This document shows positions 50,557 through 53,427 of a stretch of 64,000 nucleotides of DNA, piece after piece. This DNA comes from Escherichia coli. GTDB taxonomy: Bacteria; Pseudomonadota; Gammaproteobacteria; Enterobacterales; Enterobacteriaceae. Both the position numbers and the translations under genes were made by a program. The stretch lies in NCBI RefSeq assembly GCF_003334255.1, contig NZ_QOWU01000021.1; one strand, written 5' to 3'. The stretch's first letter is position 1. Each line of letters opens with the position of its first letter. The notes beneath the pieces are model-generated. The model did no database searches, was not told where the DNA came from, and was given only the letters and a program-made list of their open reading frames with translations.

Positions 50557-53427
50557 TTATATTTTTTCCAGCGCAGTGAGTATTTTCTCCGGTGTGAAAT
50601 GCCATTCGCGTAACCAGATGCCGCATGCATCGTGAATTGCGGTAGCAATCGCCGGAGCTGCGCCATTTACACCGATTTCCGAGATCGATTTCGCCCCGAA
50701 CGGGCCGACTTTATCGTCGCTCGGCACCAGCACAGCGCGGAAATCACGCGGAATGTCACCAATTTTCGGTGCGCCGTAACTGCGTAAATCACGCGTTAAC
50801 GGGTGACCTTCGGCGTCATAAATGATCTCTTCGCTCATACTGTGGCCGATAGCACGCAGGGTGGCACCGTAGATTTGTCCCAACGCTAACTCTGGATTGA
50901 CCGGTGTACCGCAGTCCAGCAAGGCGTAGAATTTATCCAGGCGGATTTCACCCGTACGCGTGTTGACGGCAACTTCAGCGAAGTTTGCGCCATACGGGAA
51001 GGCGAAATCAGGCGTGATATAACTGCCAGTTCCCACCAGTGAACCAAAGCCGGTGCCGGTTTCGCCTTTATGGGCAATATCCCCGAAACTAACTTCGCCT
51101 TTCTTGCCGCGCACGACGCCCGGCGTTGCCAGTTGAACATCTGCCACTGGCTCACCCAACATTTGCGCGCCGTGGAACAGAATTTTCTCCCGTAGATTTT
51201 CCGCTGCCAAACGCGCCGCGTTACCCGAGAAGCAAGTACCGGACGAGGCATATGCGCCTTTATCAAACAACGCATGATCGGTATCACCGGAGATAACATG
51301 CACGTCCTGCGGTGGGCAGTGCAGCACTTCTGCTGCCAGTTTCGTCACTACAGTATCCAGACCAGTACCAATATCCGCACCGCCAGAATGAACGATAAAG
51401 GTGCCGTCCGATTCCAGTTTGATCATGCAGTTAGCCTGATCGATATCCGGGATACCCGATTTCTGCATGATAATGGCGACGCCGCGACCGATGTGCCAGT
51501 CACCATTTTGCGGTTTCGGTGACGACCATTGGATCATCTCGCGACCCTGACGCAGGATCTCTTCCAGTGCACAGCTGGCGGCGGAAGGAACGGAGGTCGG
51601 CGCTTTACCTTCACCGATTGCACCGAGAATTTTCAGCTCTTGCCCTTCGTGTACCCGGTTACGTTCGATAATTTCCAGTTGGTCGATCTGTAACTGTTCA
51701 GCCAGTTCCGCTAATGCCATGGTGATAGCGAAGTTACCTTTCGGTGCGCCATAACCCTGATAAGCACCATTTGGGCAAATGTTGCTGTAGTAGGTGGTGA
51801 CCTGGAAATCGACGTTATCGCACGGATATAACGGCAGCGACAGCGCCGGTCCGTTACACGGTACGGTGAGTGAGTGGTTGCCGTAAGGGCCAGTGTTGGC
51901 GCGGAAATCCATCTTCACTGCCGTCAGGCGACCATCTTTTTTCGCTCCCAGTTTGACGGTGACTTTCGCGACGTGACGAGAGGTGTTAGCAATAAACTCT
52001 TCTTCACGGGTGTAGCGGAACAGTACCGGACGCCCGGTCACGCAGGTTGCCCAGGCGCACACTTCTTCCAGCAGGATGTCCTGTTTGGAACCAAAACCGC
52101 CGCCAACTCGCTCTTTAATGACATGAACTTTATGCTGTTTCATGCCCACGAGGCGCGCGACCTGGCGGCGTAAGTGCCATGGTACCTGGGTGGAGGCGTG
52201 GATAACCAGACGATCGCCGTCCATACGAGTAAAGCAGATATGTGTTTCAGTCGGGCACTGCTGCGCTTGCGTTGAGTTATAGGTTCGCTCAATGATCACA
52301 TCGGCATCGGCAAAGCCTTTGTCCATATCGCCAATATGACCATGAATACTGGCGGCGATATTTTTGCGAGGGCGAGAACCGATCGGGAAGTTGATGATCA
52401 TATGCTCGCCGCGCTGGGCTGCATGGCTGTTATCGTCTTCCAGAGTATCTGGCGCACCAGCAACATACACCACCGGTTCATCGTGCACGACAGGCGCATC
52501 TTCCGCCATTGCTTCGTCGATCGACATTACCGGCTTAAGCACTTCATATTCAACGTCGATGAGCTTCAGTGCTTCGAGCGCAATTTCTTCACTTTCTGCG
52601 ACGACCGCAGCAACACGATCGCCGACGTGACGCATTTTCTTGCCGAACATACGGCGGTCAAGCGGTGACGGTTCCGGTGCGCTCTGACCACCCGGGGTAT
52701 AGTAGATATCCGGGCAATTCAGGTGAGTAATAACGTGAACGACGCCCGGTAAGGCTTCAGCTTTGCTGACATCCAGATGAGTAATCAGTGCGTGAGCGTG
52801 TGGGCTACGTAACATTTTAATGACGCAGGCGTCAGCCGTTACGCGGTCTTCAACATAGCAGGGTTTCGCCTGCACCATTTTCGCGGCATCAGTTTTAGGA
52901 TAATGCTTACCAATGACTTCTAGGTCGTCACGGAAAGTCGGAGCGATATCAATGGTGGCCTGCGGATTATTTTTACGTGCAACCGCCAGTTCAATGACCT
53001 GATAGTATTGCTGCCAGCCAGCATCGCGGCTGAACAAACCAGAAAGCGCGTCGTCGATCTCTTCGCGGGTAGGTGCGGCGATGCGATCGAGAAGATCGGT
53101 GATAATCAGAGCTGCAGCTGGATCGTTATAACCAGACTGCACCACGCCAACATCAACCATTGCCTGTTGAACCAGACTTAACTCGTTCCATTTGCCCAGA
53201 GATTCTGCGGTACGAATATCTGCCTTCTCTAACTGTGCGGCAATAAGCAAGGACGCGTTAACGATATTACCGTTAAAGATTATTGCGTCAGAACCGGCAA
53301 ACCCGAAACCATCATCACTGTTGCGTACAGAGTGCATTCCCATGTTAAACAACAGCTTTTGCACGTTTTCGCCTGGATTAACGGTTAGCTCCTGAGGCGC
53401 GCCATTTAAAGTAAAGTGGATGATCAT
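50557..53427 (-). CDS. xdhD: molybdenum hydroxylase family protein XdhD (xanthine dehydrogenase-like Mo subunit fused to a Cys-less ferredoxin-like N-terminal domain)
   Basis: 956-aa ORF MIIHFTLNGAPQELTVNPGENVQKLLF...; aldehyde oxidase/xanthine dehydrogenase Mo-binding domains; see findings. Confidence 0.93.
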   Translation of the reverse strand: MIIHFTLNGAPQELTVNPGENVQKLLFNMGMHSVRNSDDGFGFAGSDAIIFNGNIVNASLLIAAQLEKADIRTAESLGKWNELSLVQQAMVDVGVVQSGYNDPAAALIITDLLDRIAAPTREEIDDALSGLFSRDAGWQQYYQVIELAVARKNNPQATIDIAPTFRDDLEVIGKHYPKTDAAKMVQAKPCYVEDRVTADACVIKMLRSPHAHALITHLDVSKAEALPGVVHVITHLNCPDIYYTPGGQSAPEPSPLDRRMFGKKMRHVGDRVAAVVAESEEIALEALKLIDVEYEVLKPVMSIDEAMAEDAPVVHDEPVVYVAGAPDTLEDDNSHAAQRGEHMIINFPIGSRPRKNIAASIHGHIGDMDKGFADADVIIERTYNSTQAQQCPTETHICFTRMDGDRLVIHASTQVPWHLRRQVARLVGMKQHKVHVIKERVGGGFGSKQDILLEEVCAWATCVTGRPVLFRYTREEEFIANTSRHVAKVTVKLGAKKDGRLTAVKMDFRANTGPYGNHSLTVPCNGPALSLPLYPCDNVDFQVTTYYSNICPNGAYQGYGAPKGNFAITMALAELAEQLQIDQLEIIERNRVHEGQELKILGAIGEGKAPTSVPSAASCALEEILRQGREMIQWSSPKPQNGDWHIGRGVAIIMQKSGIPDIDQANCMIKLESDGTFIVHSGGADIGTGLDTVVTKLAAEVLHCPPQDVHVISGDTDHALFDKGAYASSGTCFSGNAARLAAENLREKILFHGAQMLGEPVADVQLATPGVVRGKKGEVSFGDIAHKGETGTGFGSLVGTGSYITPDFAFPYGANFAEVAVNTRTGEIRLDKFYALLDCGTPVNPELALGQIYGATLRAIGHSMSEEIIYDAEGHPLTRDLRSYGAPKIGDIPRDFRAVLVPSDDKVGPFGAKSISEIGVNGAAPAIATAIHDACGIWLREWHFTPEKILTALEKI

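What the first reader, a model, noticed from the sequence alone, without database searches (positions are those of the whole stretch)
52870..53427. XdhD carries a ferredoxin-like N-terminal domain that has lost every [2Fe-2S] cysteine ligand
The first ~185 residues of XdhD align in spacing with a xanthine dehydrogenase Fe-S subunit, but every Cys position is substituted. Where the canonical subunit has GCCVGECGACTV, XdhD has SDDGFGFAGSDA; QCGFCTPG becomes QSGYNDPA; LCRCTGY becomes LFSRDAGW. The first Cys in XdhD appears only at about residue 190 (AKPCYVED). The Mo subunit therefore seems to retain a fossil, cluster-less ferredoxin fold, which implies an unusual electron path, probably through YgfM (FAD) and the Fe-S-rich YgfK.
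Basis: partly seen in the sequence, partly recalled or inferred. Interest (0 to 1): 0.6.

Follow-up and report, generated by a model that had tools for sequence, protein, structure and literature searches.

The report
Cluster-less ferredoxin domain in XdhD
The E. coli urate-reducing molybdenum enzyme XdhD keeps the fold of the usual two-cluster iron-sulfur "wire" but has lost all eight cysteines that hold the clusters, and the same loss arose repeatedly in its relatives, so how electrons reach its molybdenum site is an open, testable question.

Summary
Residues 1-150 of XdhD (window 52978-53427, minus strand) are homologous to the 2x[2Fe-2S] small subunits of xanthine-oxidase-family enzymes (E = 1.6e-17 to 3hrd_D; 3e-22 to E. 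coli XdhC). All eight ligand columns are non-Cys: D38 A44 D47 S59 / S98 N101 S133 D135. The first Cys is C190.

The module is a conserved pseudo-ferredoxin, not a decaying fossil:
- AF2 pLDDT is 81-96 over residues 1-160, and the whole chain superposes on D. gigas aldehyde oxidoreductase.
- The replacement residues are invariant in 38 aligned species.
- Orthologues at 50-55% identity still have 8 Cys, and 4-Cys intermediates exist. Bootstrapped trees need at least 4 independent losses.
- The FAD subunit YgfM is retained throughout, with its FAD motifs intact.

XdhD-YgfM is already published as the NADH-dependent urate to 2,8-dioxopurine reductase. None of the XdhD papers I opened mentions the missing ligands, and RefSeq still names the protein "Mo/Fe-S-binding".

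The canonical FAD-FeS-FeS-Mo wire cannot exist here, and the real electron route is unknown.

Verdict: new variant of a known kind; interest about 0.6.

The parts
50557..53427 (-). xdhD coding sequence (956 aa plus stop): pseudo-FeS module fused to the Mo subunit
   Evidence: ORF and translation. NCBIfam TIGR03313 scores 2122.8 bits against a cut-off of 1101.9. 100% identical to K-12 xdhD.
53212..53427 (-). Residues 1-72: beta-grasp, plant-type-ferredoxin-like half (the former FeS-II site, next to the flavin), with no Cys
   Evidence: Aligned from residue 3 to FeS small subunits. AF2 strands E2-7, E10-15, E48-51, E54-57, E70-72 and helix H22-28; pLDDT 82-96.
53287..53319 (-). Loop S37-D47, SDDGFGFAGSD, in place of the C-x4-C-x2-C motif (D38, A44 and D47 in the ligand columns)
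   Evidence: Translation and alignment. S37, D38, D39, G42, F43, G45, S46 and D47 are present in 37-38 of 38 Cys-less orthologues.
53251..53253 (-). S59, in the column of the fourth FeS-II Cys ligand
   Evidence: This column is N or S in the Cys-less clade and C in 16/16 8-Cys orthologues.
52978..53211 (-). Residues 73-150: helical Fer2_2-like half (the former FeS-I site, next to the pterin), with no Cys
   Evidence: Pfam PF01799 E = 6.3e-12 over residues 73-145. AF2 helices H85-93, H101-115, H121-128, H138-153. Mean pairwise identity 0.61 in the Cys-less clade, the same as the Mo domains.
53125..53139 (-). Q97-N101, QSGYN, in place of Q-C-G-[FY]-C (S98 and N101 in the ligand columns)
   Evidence: S98 and N101 are present in 38/38 Cys-less orthologues. 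The same C-to-S and C-to-N changes occur in Chloroflexi L069 and L081.
53023..53034 (-). F132-D135, FSRD, in place of L-C-R-C (S133 and D135 in the ligand columns)
   Evidence: F132 38/38, R134 38/38, D135 34/38.
52870..52977 (-). Residues 151-186: end of the last helix plus the coil linker to the hammerhead domain
   Evidence: AF2 secondary structure and pLDDT of about 90.
50557..52869 (-). Residues 187-956: a/b-hammerhead plus two MoCo-binding domains (the catalytic part)
   Evidence: Pfam PF01315, PF02738 and PF20256. GGGFGSK at residues 442-448 is invariant. The closest solved Mo subunit is 4-hydroxybenzoyl-CoA reductase alpha, E = 3.7e-80.
53424..54203 (-). ygfM, the FAD-binding subunit (259 aa); its stop overlaps the xdhD start by 4 nt
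   Evidence: TIGR03312 scores 489.7 bits against a cut-off of 241.5. Homologous to CoxM/NdhF-type FAD subunits. The FAGGSKL and TIGGE motifs are conserved in 62 orthologues.
55585..58683 (-). [quoted passage not shown]
   Evidence: TIGR03315 scores 1778.7 bits. Published as the 2,8-dioxopurine reductase.
54254..55582 (-). ssnA (context): ring-opening amidohydrolase of the same pathway
   Evidence: TIGR03314. The RefSeq start was mapped from L082.
43812..46219 (+). ygfT and ygfS (context): poly-[4Fe-4S] proteins, candidate external electron donors
   Evidence: NF009451, 'formate-dependent uric acid utilization protein YgfT', 1505.9 bits; YgfS is HydN-like. Annotation.

Best explanation
Shown here. 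Residues 1-150 of XdhD are a genuine homologue of the two-[2Fe-2S] small subunit of xanthine-oxidase-family enzymes. They are fused to the Mo subunit as in D. gigas aldehyde oxidoreductase, and every one of the eight cluster-ligating cysteines is replaced (D38, A44, D47, S59 / S98, N101, S133, D135). The module is a conserved pseudo-ferredoxin rather than a decaying relic. The fold is retained, the replacement residues are invariant across a clade spanning Gammaproteobacteria, Spirochaetes, Clostridia and others, and the module is about as conserved as the catalytic domains.

Shown by others. XdhD co-purifies with a ~30 kDa protein taken to be YgfM and reduces uric acid to 2,8-dioxopurine with NADH.

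Inferred.
- The module binds no Fe-S cluster. The bulky residues F43 and F132 plus polar or acidic side chains fill the former cluster cavities.
- It is kept as a structural adaptor. The Fer2_2-like half completes the pterin pocket: Q97 is conserved, and D135 sits where a pterin-contacting Cys ligand sits in solved family members. The Fer2-like half is the docking platform for the FAD subunit.
- The canonical FAD -> FeS-II -> FeS-I -> Mo relay therefore cannot operate.

My best guess for the mechanism, held with low confidence: NADH still enters at the YgfM flavin, and the electrons cross roughly 20-27 A of cofactor-free protein slowly, or with the help of a relay not yet identified. The published end-point assay (10 uM enzyme, 1 mM NADH) would detect even about 0.01 turnovers per second.
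For: Homology and missing ligands.

Fold retained: AF2 pLDDT 88.5, pTM 0.89, N-terminal 10-residue blocks 81-96. Foldseek best hit is 1sij over the whole chain, TM 0.84/0.89.

Purifying selection and invariant replacements: mean pairwise identity 0.46 (residues 1-72) and 0.61 (73-150) against 0.61-0.66 for the Mo domains. D38, D39, D47, S98, N101 and F132 are present in 38/38, F43 in 37/38.

Derived, recurrent state:
- 8-Cys orthologues exist at 50-55% identity, each with a ygfM-like gene upstream.
- 4-Cys intermediates exist: P0095, L072, L075.
- At least 4 losses of FeS-II and at least 2 of FeS-I occur in 100/100 NJ bootstraps.
- The C-to-D, C-to-S and C-to-N replacements are convergent.

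FAD subunit retained: 62 YgfM orthologues keep xGG[TS], T[ILV]GG[NE] and D..GS..YK. Chloroflexi Cys-less loci also have an FAD-subunit gene.

No compensating Cys or His appears elsewhere in XdhD.

Activity, co-purification and modelled canonical complex: PMC12507026 and PMC12990295, AlphaFold3 ipTM 0.94.

Distances (Mo-FeS-I about 15 A, FeS-I to FeS-II about 12 A, FeS-II to FAD about 8 A in bovine XDH and CODH) and the Moser-Dutton rate rule come from established knowledge recalled from memory. They were not computed here.
Against: - No Fe/S analysis, spectrum or structure of XdhD exists, so absence of a cluster is inferred from sequence alone.
- A slow, relay-less enzyme is hard to reconcile with at least four independent losses under continued purifying selection, and with the FAD subunit being retained every time. 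That pattern suggests the clusters were really dispensable, meaning some efficient alternative route exists that I cannot see.
- The published assay gives no rates, so 'slow' is untested.
- The pterin-contact role of D135 and Q97, and the interface role of residues 37-47, are inferred by homology. The structure tool returns no coordinates.
- The trees are neighbour-joining on MAG-heavy data.
Confidence: 0.6

Rival explanations
1. A separate Fe-S protein supplies the missing relay. Candidates are YgfK (the reader's idea, and the older three-subunit YgfK/YgfM/YgfN 'selenate reductase' annotation) or the poly-[4Fe-4S] proteins YgfS, YgfT and AegA. The partner would dock on XdhD-YgfM and feed electrons towards Mo.
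For: - ygfK, ygfS and ygfT lie in the same E. coli locus.
- YgfK has 26 Cys, including ferredoxin-type CxxCxxCxxxC runs.
- NCBIfam names YgfT and AegA 'formate-dependent uric acid utilization' proteins.
- ygfK is adjacent to xdhD in Gammaproteobacteria, some Spirochaetes and some Clostridiales.
Against: - Purified YgfK alone is the NAD(P)H:2,8-dioxopurine reductase.
- Only a ~30 kDa protein co-purified with tagged XdhD, and that preparation was reported active with NADH.
- The pseudo-FeS module occupies the place where a small subunit would sit.
- Many Cys-less loci have no ygfK within 7 kb, and none outside E. coli has a YgfS/YgfT-type ferredoxin gene nearby.
- Every extra FeS-subunit gene found near Cys-less xdhD belongs to a complete, separate XdhABC-type enzyme.
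Confidence: 0.15
2. The former cluster sites were converted into a different metal or cofactor site that either stabilises the interface or still relays electrons. A carboxylate-rich site would be formed by XdhD D38/D39/D47 together with YgfM D/E112-113, and a second site by S98/N101/D135.
For: - D38, D39, D47, S98 and N101 are invariant.
- C-to-D at ligands 1 and 3, and C-to-S and C-to-N at ligands 5 and 6, are convergent in independent lineages.
- YgfM position 113 switches from Cys (13/18 partners of 8-Cys XdhD) to Asp/Glu (39/44 partners of Cys-less XdhD).
Against: - No His or Cys accompanies these residues.
- No biological [2Fe-2S] cluster without any Cys ligand is known (my knowledge).
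- Asp/Ser/Asn sites would favour Mg2+ or Ca2+, which cannot relay electrons.
- F43 and F132 look like cavity fillers.
- The proximity of the YgfM 111-115 loop to XdhD 37-47 is assumed, not measured.
Confidence: 0.12
3. No intramolecular electron transfer is needed. Mo(VI) would be re-reduced directly at the active site by a second substrate or a small reductant (ping-pong, transhydroxylase-like), and YgfM would be kept for stability or for a separate flavin function.
For: - Repeated independent loss of both clusters is what would be expected if the wire were unused.
- Only two further positions in XdhD and one in YgfM switch with the loss.
- A canonical XdhABC-type enzyme lies within 7 kb in 23/42 Cys-less main-clade loci against 0/16 8-Cys main-clade loci. 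This hints at a division of labour.
Against: - NADH-dependent activity was reported for XdhD with its ~30 kDa partner.
- An xdhA mutant does not consume xanthine although XdhD is present.
- The clostridial counterpart only interconverts urate and 2,8-dioxopurine.
- YgfM keeps its FAD motifs in every Cys-less lineage, which is unexpected for a purely structural subunit.
Confidence: 0.1
4. Artefact or pseudogene: a wrong start codon, a strain-specific lesion, or a decaying non-functional gene.
For: None found.
Against: - The locus is present at 95% identity or more in 5178 of 5426 complete E. coli genomes.
- Orthologues begin at the same Met.
- The module is under purifying selection.
- A deletion phenotype and enzyme activity are published.
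Confidence: 0.01

Closest known systems
Desulfovibrio gigas aldehyde oxidoreductase (MOP/AOR; 1sij, 1vlb)
   Same: One chain with the order Fer2-like, Fer2_2-like, linker, Mo domains. It is the best structural match over the whole XdhD model (E = 1.7e-78, TM 0.84/0.89).
   Different: MOP binds two [2Fe-2S] clusters through eight Cys and has no FAD subunit. XdhD has no Cys ligands and does have an FAD subunit.
E. coli XdhABC and R. capsulatus or bovine xanthine dehydrogenase (canonical Mo-FeS-FeS-FAD enzymes)
   Same: Same family and the same three modules. The XdhD N-terminus is 33% identical to E. coli XdhC (E = 3e-22). YgfM is homologous to XdhB/CoxM. The XdhD-YgfM complex is modelled as XDH-like (PMC12507026, PMC12990295).
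   Different: Both relay clusters are missing. XdhD runs in the reductive direction at C6 of urate, and its FeS-like module is fused to the Mo subunit.
[quoted passage not shown]
   Same: Same reaction (urate to or from 2,8-dioxopurine) and same pathway context.
   Different: It is reported to carry iron-sulfur-cluster-binding domains, to lack an FAD domain and not to use NAD(P)H; it was assayed with methyl viologen. The C. difficile counterpart is only 25.6% identical to E. coli XdhD. I did not examine its sequence here.
4-Hydroxybenzoyl-CoA reductase (Thauera aromatica, 1rm6)
   Same: Closest solved Mo subunit by sequence (E = 3.7e-80). It also works as a reductive dehydroxylase with electrons flowing towards Mo.
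   Different: It keeps both [2Fe-2S] clusters and, from my knowledge, adds a [4Fe-4S] cluster in the FAD subunit. XdhD went the opposite way and has no clusters.
8-Cys members of the same NCBIfam family TIGR03313 (for example Holophaga P0093/P0249, Terriglobia L027, Spirochaete L041)
   Same: 50-55% identical over the full length, the same architecture, and a ygfM-like gene immediately upstream.
   Different: They retain all eight ligands. They lack a neighbouring XdhABC-type enzyme (0/16). Their YgfM partners carry Cys at position 113, where partners of Cys-less XdhD have Asp or Glu.

Membership tests
Xanthine oxidase / molybdenum hydroxylase family (Mo subunit) | a/b-hammerhead plus the two MoCo-binding domains | tested here: met
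   PF01315 6e-31, PF02738 3.8e-72, PF20256 6.4e-68. Whole-chain structural match to 1sij, 1rm6 and 1fo4.
Xanthine oxidase / molybdenum hydroxylase family (Mo subunit) | Conserved GGGFGxK Mo/pterin-binding motif | tested here: met
   ERVGGGFGSKQD at residues 439-450. G442, G443, G444, G446 and K448 are invariant in 40 orthologues.
NCBIfam TIGR03313 (YgfN/XdhD, 'Mo/Fe-S-binding subunit') | Full-length score above the curated cut-off | tested here: met
   2122.8 bits against a cut-off of 1101.9, profile positions 1-951.
[2Fe-2S]-binding small subunit or domain of the XO family (Fer2 + Fer2_2) | Homologous sequence and fold (beta-grasp plus four-helix bundle) | tested here: met
   E = 1.6e-17 to 3hrd_D. 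XdhC/PucE HMMs 6e-19 to 1e-17. AF2 secondary structure and pLDDT 81-96.
[2Fe-2S]-binding small subunit or domain of the XO family (Fer2 + Fer2_2) | Four Cys of the plant-type motif C-x4-C-x2-C-x11-C (FeS-II) | tested here: not met
   D38, A44, D47, S59.
[2Fe-2S]-binding small subunit or domain of the XO family (Fer2 + Fer2_2) | Four Cys of the C-x2-C ... C-x-C motif (FeS-I) | tested here: not met
   S98, N101, S133, D135.
[2Fe-2S]-binding small subunit or domain of the XO family (Fer2 + Fer2_2) | Measured Fe and acid-labile sulfide, or Fe-S EPR/UV-vis signature | not testable with these tools
   No such data appear in the papers read.
Three-module XDH-type holoenzyme (Mo + FeS relay + FAD) | Dedicated FAD-binding subunit with intact FAD motifs | tested here: met
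   YgfM scores 489.7 bits on TIGR03312. The FAGGSKL and TIGGE motifs are conserved in 62 orthologues.
Three-module XDH-type holoenzyme (Mo + FeS relay + FAD) | Two-cluster relay between FAD and Mo | tested here: not met
   No ligand Cys is present in XdhD. The only FeS-subunit genes found nearby in relatives belong to separate XdhABC-type operons.
Urate 6-dehydroxylase / 2,8-dioxopurine dehydrogenase of the reductive uricolytic pathway | Catalytic activity on urate | not testable with these tools
   Published for this exact protein (PMC12507026).
Urate 6-dehydroxylase / 2,8-dioxopurine dehydrogenase of the reductive uricolytic pathway | Genomic context with ssnA, ygfK, hyuA, ygeW/X/Y, yqeB/C and mocA | tested here: met

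The most novel reading that the evidence does not exclude
A whole clade of FAD-containing xanthine-oxidase-family enzymes has discarded both [2Fe-2S] clusters at least four separate times, yet it keeps the flavin subunit and works efficiently as an NADH-linked urate reductase. That would mean flavin and molybdenum are coupled by something not described for any molybdenum hydroxylase. Possibilities are a new carboxylate-based metal site at the former FeS-II position (XdhD D38/D39/D47 plus YgfM D/E113), a conformational shuttle, or direct reduction of the pterin or Mo by a docking partner.
Probability: 0.3. Interest if true: 0.85.

Novelty: new variant of a known kind. Interest (0 to 1): 0.62.

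Why it matters
The Mo -> FeS-I -> FeS-II -> FAD chain is the textbook design of every characterised xanthine-oxidase-family flavoenzyme. Here, a well-known E. coli protein, now recognised as the entry enzyme of the gut-bacterial uric-acid degradation pathway relevant to gout, has the flavin and the molybdenum but neither cluster. Relatives lost the clusters repeatedly while keeping the flavin subunit.

Two outcomes are possible. Either the published NADH activity is very slow and the physiological donor is still unknown, which matters for engineering uricolytic probiotics. Or there is a new way to couple a flavin to a molybdenum centre.

The question is directly testable, because natural 8-Cys, 4-Cys and 0-Cys orthologues exist for side-by-side comparison.

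There is also a practical consequence. The RefSeq/NCBIfam product name 'Mo/Fe-S-binding subunit' appears in every RefSeq record I inspected. The name '2Fe-2S iron-sulfur cluster-binding protein' is given to fragments. Both are probably wrong for this clade.

Tried and rejected
1. The search for homologous proteins with the 186-aa N-terminus returned only fragments of close orthologues. It was useful only for showing that they are named '2Fe-2S cluster-binding'.

2. An orphan FeS small subunit as a trans-acting replacement. tblastn found canonical FeS-subunit genes 2-4 kb from many Cys-less xdhD genes. ORF maps show each one sits in a complete Mo+FAD+FeS XdhABC-type operon. The idea was rejected. 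The first-pass 'CCCC' calls for L029 and L060 were that xdhC ORF and were corrected to DCDN|SNID.

3. YgfS/YgfT-type ferredoxin genes as conserved neighbours. None was found outside E. coli, and the hits were YgfK cross-matches.

4. A cluster in YgfM, as in 4-hydroxybenzoyl-CoA reductase beta. E. coli YgfM has C143, C145, C161 and C251, but no Cys is conserved across orthologues.

5. Compensating Cys, His or aromatic gains in the Mo domain. Only L452/V and G885/K switch.

6. Xanthine as a Mo-site reductant (net xanthine to 2,8-dioxopurine isomerisation). This is disfavoured by published mutant data and by the DOPDH substrate range.

7. Prior reports of the Cys loss. I opened the relevant papers among those holding XdhD, YgfM or YgfN and found no mention. 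Two broad searches were uninformative, one paper id was not held, and one look-up failed. Subscription literature and the EcoCyc and UniProt notes could not be checked.

8. A fused YgfM-XdhD AF2 model was considered and dropped. The construct exceeds the 1200-residue limit, and the tool returns no coordinates for measuring distances.

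
Full report
**What is at the coordinates.** The window carries the E. coli purine/urate locus on its minus strand:
- xdhD at 50557..53427 (956 aa);
- ygfM at 53424..54203 (259 aa), overlapping xdhD by 4 nt;
- ssnA, ygfK (55585..58683) and mocA; yqeC and yqeB follow on the plus strand. On the other side of xdhD are xanQ, guaD and ghxQ (minus strand), ygfS/ygfT (plus strand) and uacT.

The xdhD-ygfM stretch is 100% identical to K-12 MG1655 and is present in 5178 of 5426 complete E. 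coli genomes. The finding's coordinates, 52870..53427, are XdhD residues 1-186.

**Checking the observation.** Residues 3-154 align almost without gaps to solved [2Fe-2S] small subunits:
- 3hrd_D E = 1.6e-17, 4zoh_C 1.1e-11, 1t3q_A 5.9e-08, and the N-terminus of D. gigas and D. desulfuricans aldehyde oxidoreductase;
- NCBIfam XdhC/PucE models, 6e-19 to 1e-17;
- Pfam Fer2_2, 6e-12;
- E. coli's own XdhC, 33% identity, E = 3e-22.

The first 78 residues alone still find 3hrd_D at E = 0.0012, with other FeS subunits next in register. Pfam Fer2 itself is not reported.

In these alignments the eight ligand columns are D38, A44, D47, S59 (plant-type site) and S98, N101, S133, D135 (second site). The motifs were re-translated from the window. 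XdhD has no Cys before C190 and 16 afterwards.

Among the 150 best of 34,649 family representatives, 41 carry a fused N-terminal module. Of these, 36 have Cys in all eight columns, one has four, and four have none.

**Is the fold kept?** AlphaFold2 on a 40-sequence alignment gave pLDDT 88.5 and pTM 0.89. The 10-residue block means over residues 1-160 are 96 94 92 82 85 93 96 90 92 87 93 94 91 81 94 90. The secondary structure is a beta-grasp followed by a four-helix unit. Foldseek's best PDB hits for the whole chain are D. gigas aldehyde oxidoreductase (1sij, E = 1.7e-78, TM 0.84/0.89) and its D. desulfuricans homologue (1dgj). Both have exactly this FeS-FeS-Mo single-chain architecture.

**Is it a fossil?** No. 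A scan of one genome per species returned 77 loci, of which 74 could be scored.
- The ligand pattern D-x-D-[SNG] | S-N-x-[DAS], with zero Cys or one, occurs in 42 species. These include Kluyvera, Arsenophonus, Edwardsiella, Hafnia, Morganella, Aeromonas, Photobacterium, a Rhodocyclaceae MAG, many Spirochaetes, Oscillospiraceae and Lachnospiraceae, and Bacteroidetes and alphaproteobacterial MAGs.
- A 1913-member gut-metagenome cluster named for Vescimonas fastidiosa is also Cys-less.
- Across 38 of these sequences the module's mean pairwise identity is 0.46 (residues 1-72) and 0.61 (73-150), against 0.61-0.66 for the MoCo domains.
- The replacement residues are fixed: S37, D38, D39, G42, F43, G45, S46, D47, S98, N101, F132 and R134 in 37-38 of 38, and D135 in 34 of 38.
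- The bulky residues F43 and F132 replace S/T and L of the 8-Cys relatives, as expected for filling the cluster cavities (inference).

**The loss is derived and recurrent.**
- Orthologues only 50-55% identical to XdhD keep all eight Cys. Examples are other Spirochaete MAGs, Terriglobia and Holophaga, Phycisphaerales, Dependentiae and Riflebacteria.
- A more distant Chloroflexi-rich clade mixes 8-Cys, 4-Cys and 0-Cys forms. The 4-Cys forms (DSDG|CCCC and similar: P0095, L072, L075) have lost only the flavin-proximal site. The 0-Cys forms are L069, L074, L080 and L081.
- I built neighbour-joining trees of the Mo domain (742 columns, 100 bootstraps) and counted losses as irreversible. Every replicate needs at least 4 losses of the first site and at least 2 of the second. 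The pairs L075+L073 and L072+L078, each a 4-Cys form with an 8-Cys sister, have 100% support.
- The replacements are convergent: C to D at ligands 1 and 3, and C to S and C to N in the QCGYC motif.
- Monophyly of the main Cys-less clade is unresolved (42 of 100 replicates).

**Partners.**
- A ygfM-like FAD-subunit gene lies immediately upstream in nearly every locus, whatever the Cys state. Chloroflexi Cys-less loci also have one nearby.
- Across 62 YgfM orthologues the FAD-family motifs (xGG[TS], T[ILV]GG[NE], D..GS..YK) are conserved in both groups.
- Only two other XdhD positions and one YgfM position switch cleanly with the loss.
- YgfM position 113 is Cys in 13/18 partners of 8-Cys XdhD and Asp/Glu in 39/44 partners of Cys-less XdhD.
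- The canonical FeS-subunit genes seen near Cys-less xdhD always belong to a complete XdhABC-type operon. Such a second enzyme lies within 7 kb in 23/42 Cys-less main-clade loci and in 0/16 8-Cys main-clade loci (Fisher p = 6e-5, not phylogenetically corrected). In K-12, xdhABC is 16 kb away.
- No YgfS/YgfT-like ferredoxin gene accompanies xdhD outside E. coli.

**What is already known.**
- Li et al. 2025 (PMC12507026) showed that XdhD co-purifies with a ~30 kDa protein taken to be YgfM. With 1 mM NADH and 10 uM enzyme it converts urate to 2,8-dioxopurine, and an xdhD deletion accumulates urate.
- A parallel preprint (10.1101/2025.04.24.650524) characterised the clostridial enzyme. It is described as having iron-sulfur-cluster-binding domains, lacks an FAD domain, does not use NAD(P)H, and was assayed with methyl viologen. 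The preprint also showed that YgfK is the NADPH:2,8-dioxopurine reductase.
- A commentary cites an AlphaFold3 XdhD-YgfM model with ipTM 0.94 and calls YgfM 'the electron-transfer module'.
- None of these papers, nor the older papers I could open, mentions that XdhD lacks the cluster ligands.
- RefSeq names the protein 'Mo/Fe-S-binding subunit'.
- The idea that YgfK provides the Fe-S function is the old 'selenate reductase' annotation. It is now superseded by YgfK's own demonstrated activity.

**How it most likely works.**
- Shown: a homologous, well-folded, conserved module without any Cys ligand; a retained FAD subunit; an intact Mo domain.
- Shown by others: NADH-dependent urate 6-dehydroxylation.
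- Inferred: the module binds no cluster and serves as a structural adaptor. The helical half completes the pterin pocket. Q97 is conserved, and D135 sits in the column of the Cys that, from my recollection of the MOP and XDH structures, hydrogen-bonds the pterin amino group. The beta-grasp half holds YgfM.

In solved family members the spacing is about 15 A from Mo to FeS-I, 12 A from FeS-I to FeS-II and 8 A from FeS-II to the flavin (recalled from memory). Removing both clusters therefore leaves roughly 20-27 A of protein between pterin and flavin. The Moser-Dutton relation then predicts about 0.1 to 0.0001 per second. That is too slow for a normal enzyme, yet enough to give product in the published end-point assay. 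That assay therefore does not show that an efficient wire exists.

My best guess is that the flavin is still the entry point and that transfer is slow or helped by something not yet identified. However, repeated loss under purifying selection, with the flavin subunit always retained, argues that an efficient alternative may exist. The rivals are an external Fe-S partner, a new metal site at the acidic patch, and Mo-site ping-pong. They cannot be excluded with sequence tools.

**Caveats.**
- The genome scan keeps the 80 loci most similar to E. coli XdhD, so the proportions are biased towards Cys-less forms.
- Many sequences are MAG-derived.
- The trees are neighbour-joining.
- No coordinates were available to measure distances or contacts.
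- Subscription literature and curated database notes could not be searched.

**Verdict.** The protein and its reaction are known. The cluster-less, conserved and recurrently evolved pseudo-ferredoxin module in an FAD-containing molybdenum hydroxylase appears unreported, and it poses a sharp mechanistic question. I classify it as a new variant of a known kind, with interest about 0.6.

Noticed in passing
L002 (P0095), L072:298-3168, L075:10-2991: Natural intermediates exist. These XdhD-family proteins have lost only the four plant-type (flavin-proximal) Cys (DGDG, DSDG, DSDS) and keep the four Fer2_2 Cys. Each of L072 and L075 is sister to an 8-Cys protein with 100% bootstrap support. The flavin-proximal cluster seems to go first.
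   Followed up: partly
L005:2195-5860, L015:1332-4830, L060:3759-7534 and about 20 other loci; E. coli L082:40219-43647: A complete canonical XdhABC-type enzyme (Mo + FAD + 8-Cys FeS subunit) lies within 7 kb of xdhD in 23/42 Cys-less main-clade loci. It lies next to none of the 16 8-Cys main-clade orthologues (Fisher p = 6e-5, uncorrected for phylogeny).
   Followed up: partly
window 53865-53867 (YgfM E113) and orthologues in L005-L081: YgfM position 113, in the loop after the TIGG[NE] motif, is Cys in 13/18 partners of 8-Cys XdhD and Asp/Glu in 39/44 partners of Cys-less XdhD. Position 115 is mostly Tyr against Ser, and position 171 is Cys in 10/18 against 0/44. This may be co-evolution at the former FeS-II/flavin interface.
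   Followed up: partly
L031, L032, L034, L049, L028, L037, L040 (ygfM orthologues): In several Clostridia and Spirochaete Cys-less lineages YgfM is only about 230 aa. It has a deletion of about 35 residues in the C-terminal domain, while the FAD motifs are kept.
   Followed up: no
L017, L026, L029, L043, L045, L048, L051, L053, L054, L060, L066, L067: Twelve otherwise Cys-less orthologues keep, or have regained, a single Cys at the second ligand column (pattern DCD[NG] | SN..).
   Followed up: no
window 50557-53427; RefSeq records H1-H5; P0003, P0008, P0039, P0047, P0049: Annotation pipelines call this protein 'Mo/Fe-S-binding subunit' and call its fragments '2Fe-2S iron-sulfur cluster-binding protein', although it has no cluster ligands. 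This is probably a systematic misnomer for the Cys-less clade.
   Followed up: yes
window 53424-53427: The ygfM stop codon and the xdhD start codon overlap by 4 nt (ATGA). This is consistent with translational coupling of the two subunits. The same tight or overlapping junction is seen in L002, L005, L015 and L060.
   Followed up: partly
window 43812-46219 (+): ygfT ('formate-dependent uric acid utilization protein') and ygfS (HydN-like poly-[4Fe-4S] protein) are transcribed divergently a few kb from xdhD. They are candidate physiological electron donors, but they are not conserved next to xdhD in other taxa.
   Followed up: partly
L069:5529-6413: An F420-dependent luciferase-like oxidoreductase (TIGR03560, 241 bits) lies just downstream of a Cys-less Chloroflexi xdhD. 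This agrees with the published suggestion that Chloroflexota use an F420 enzyme in place of YgfK.
   Followed up: no
L070:7001-9756, L071:7001-9898, L077:6430-9185: In these loci the FeS-like part ends in a stop after 159-177 codons. The FeS module is therefore either a separate gene or the assembly has a frameshift. The fusion to the Mo subunit is not universal.
   Followed up: no
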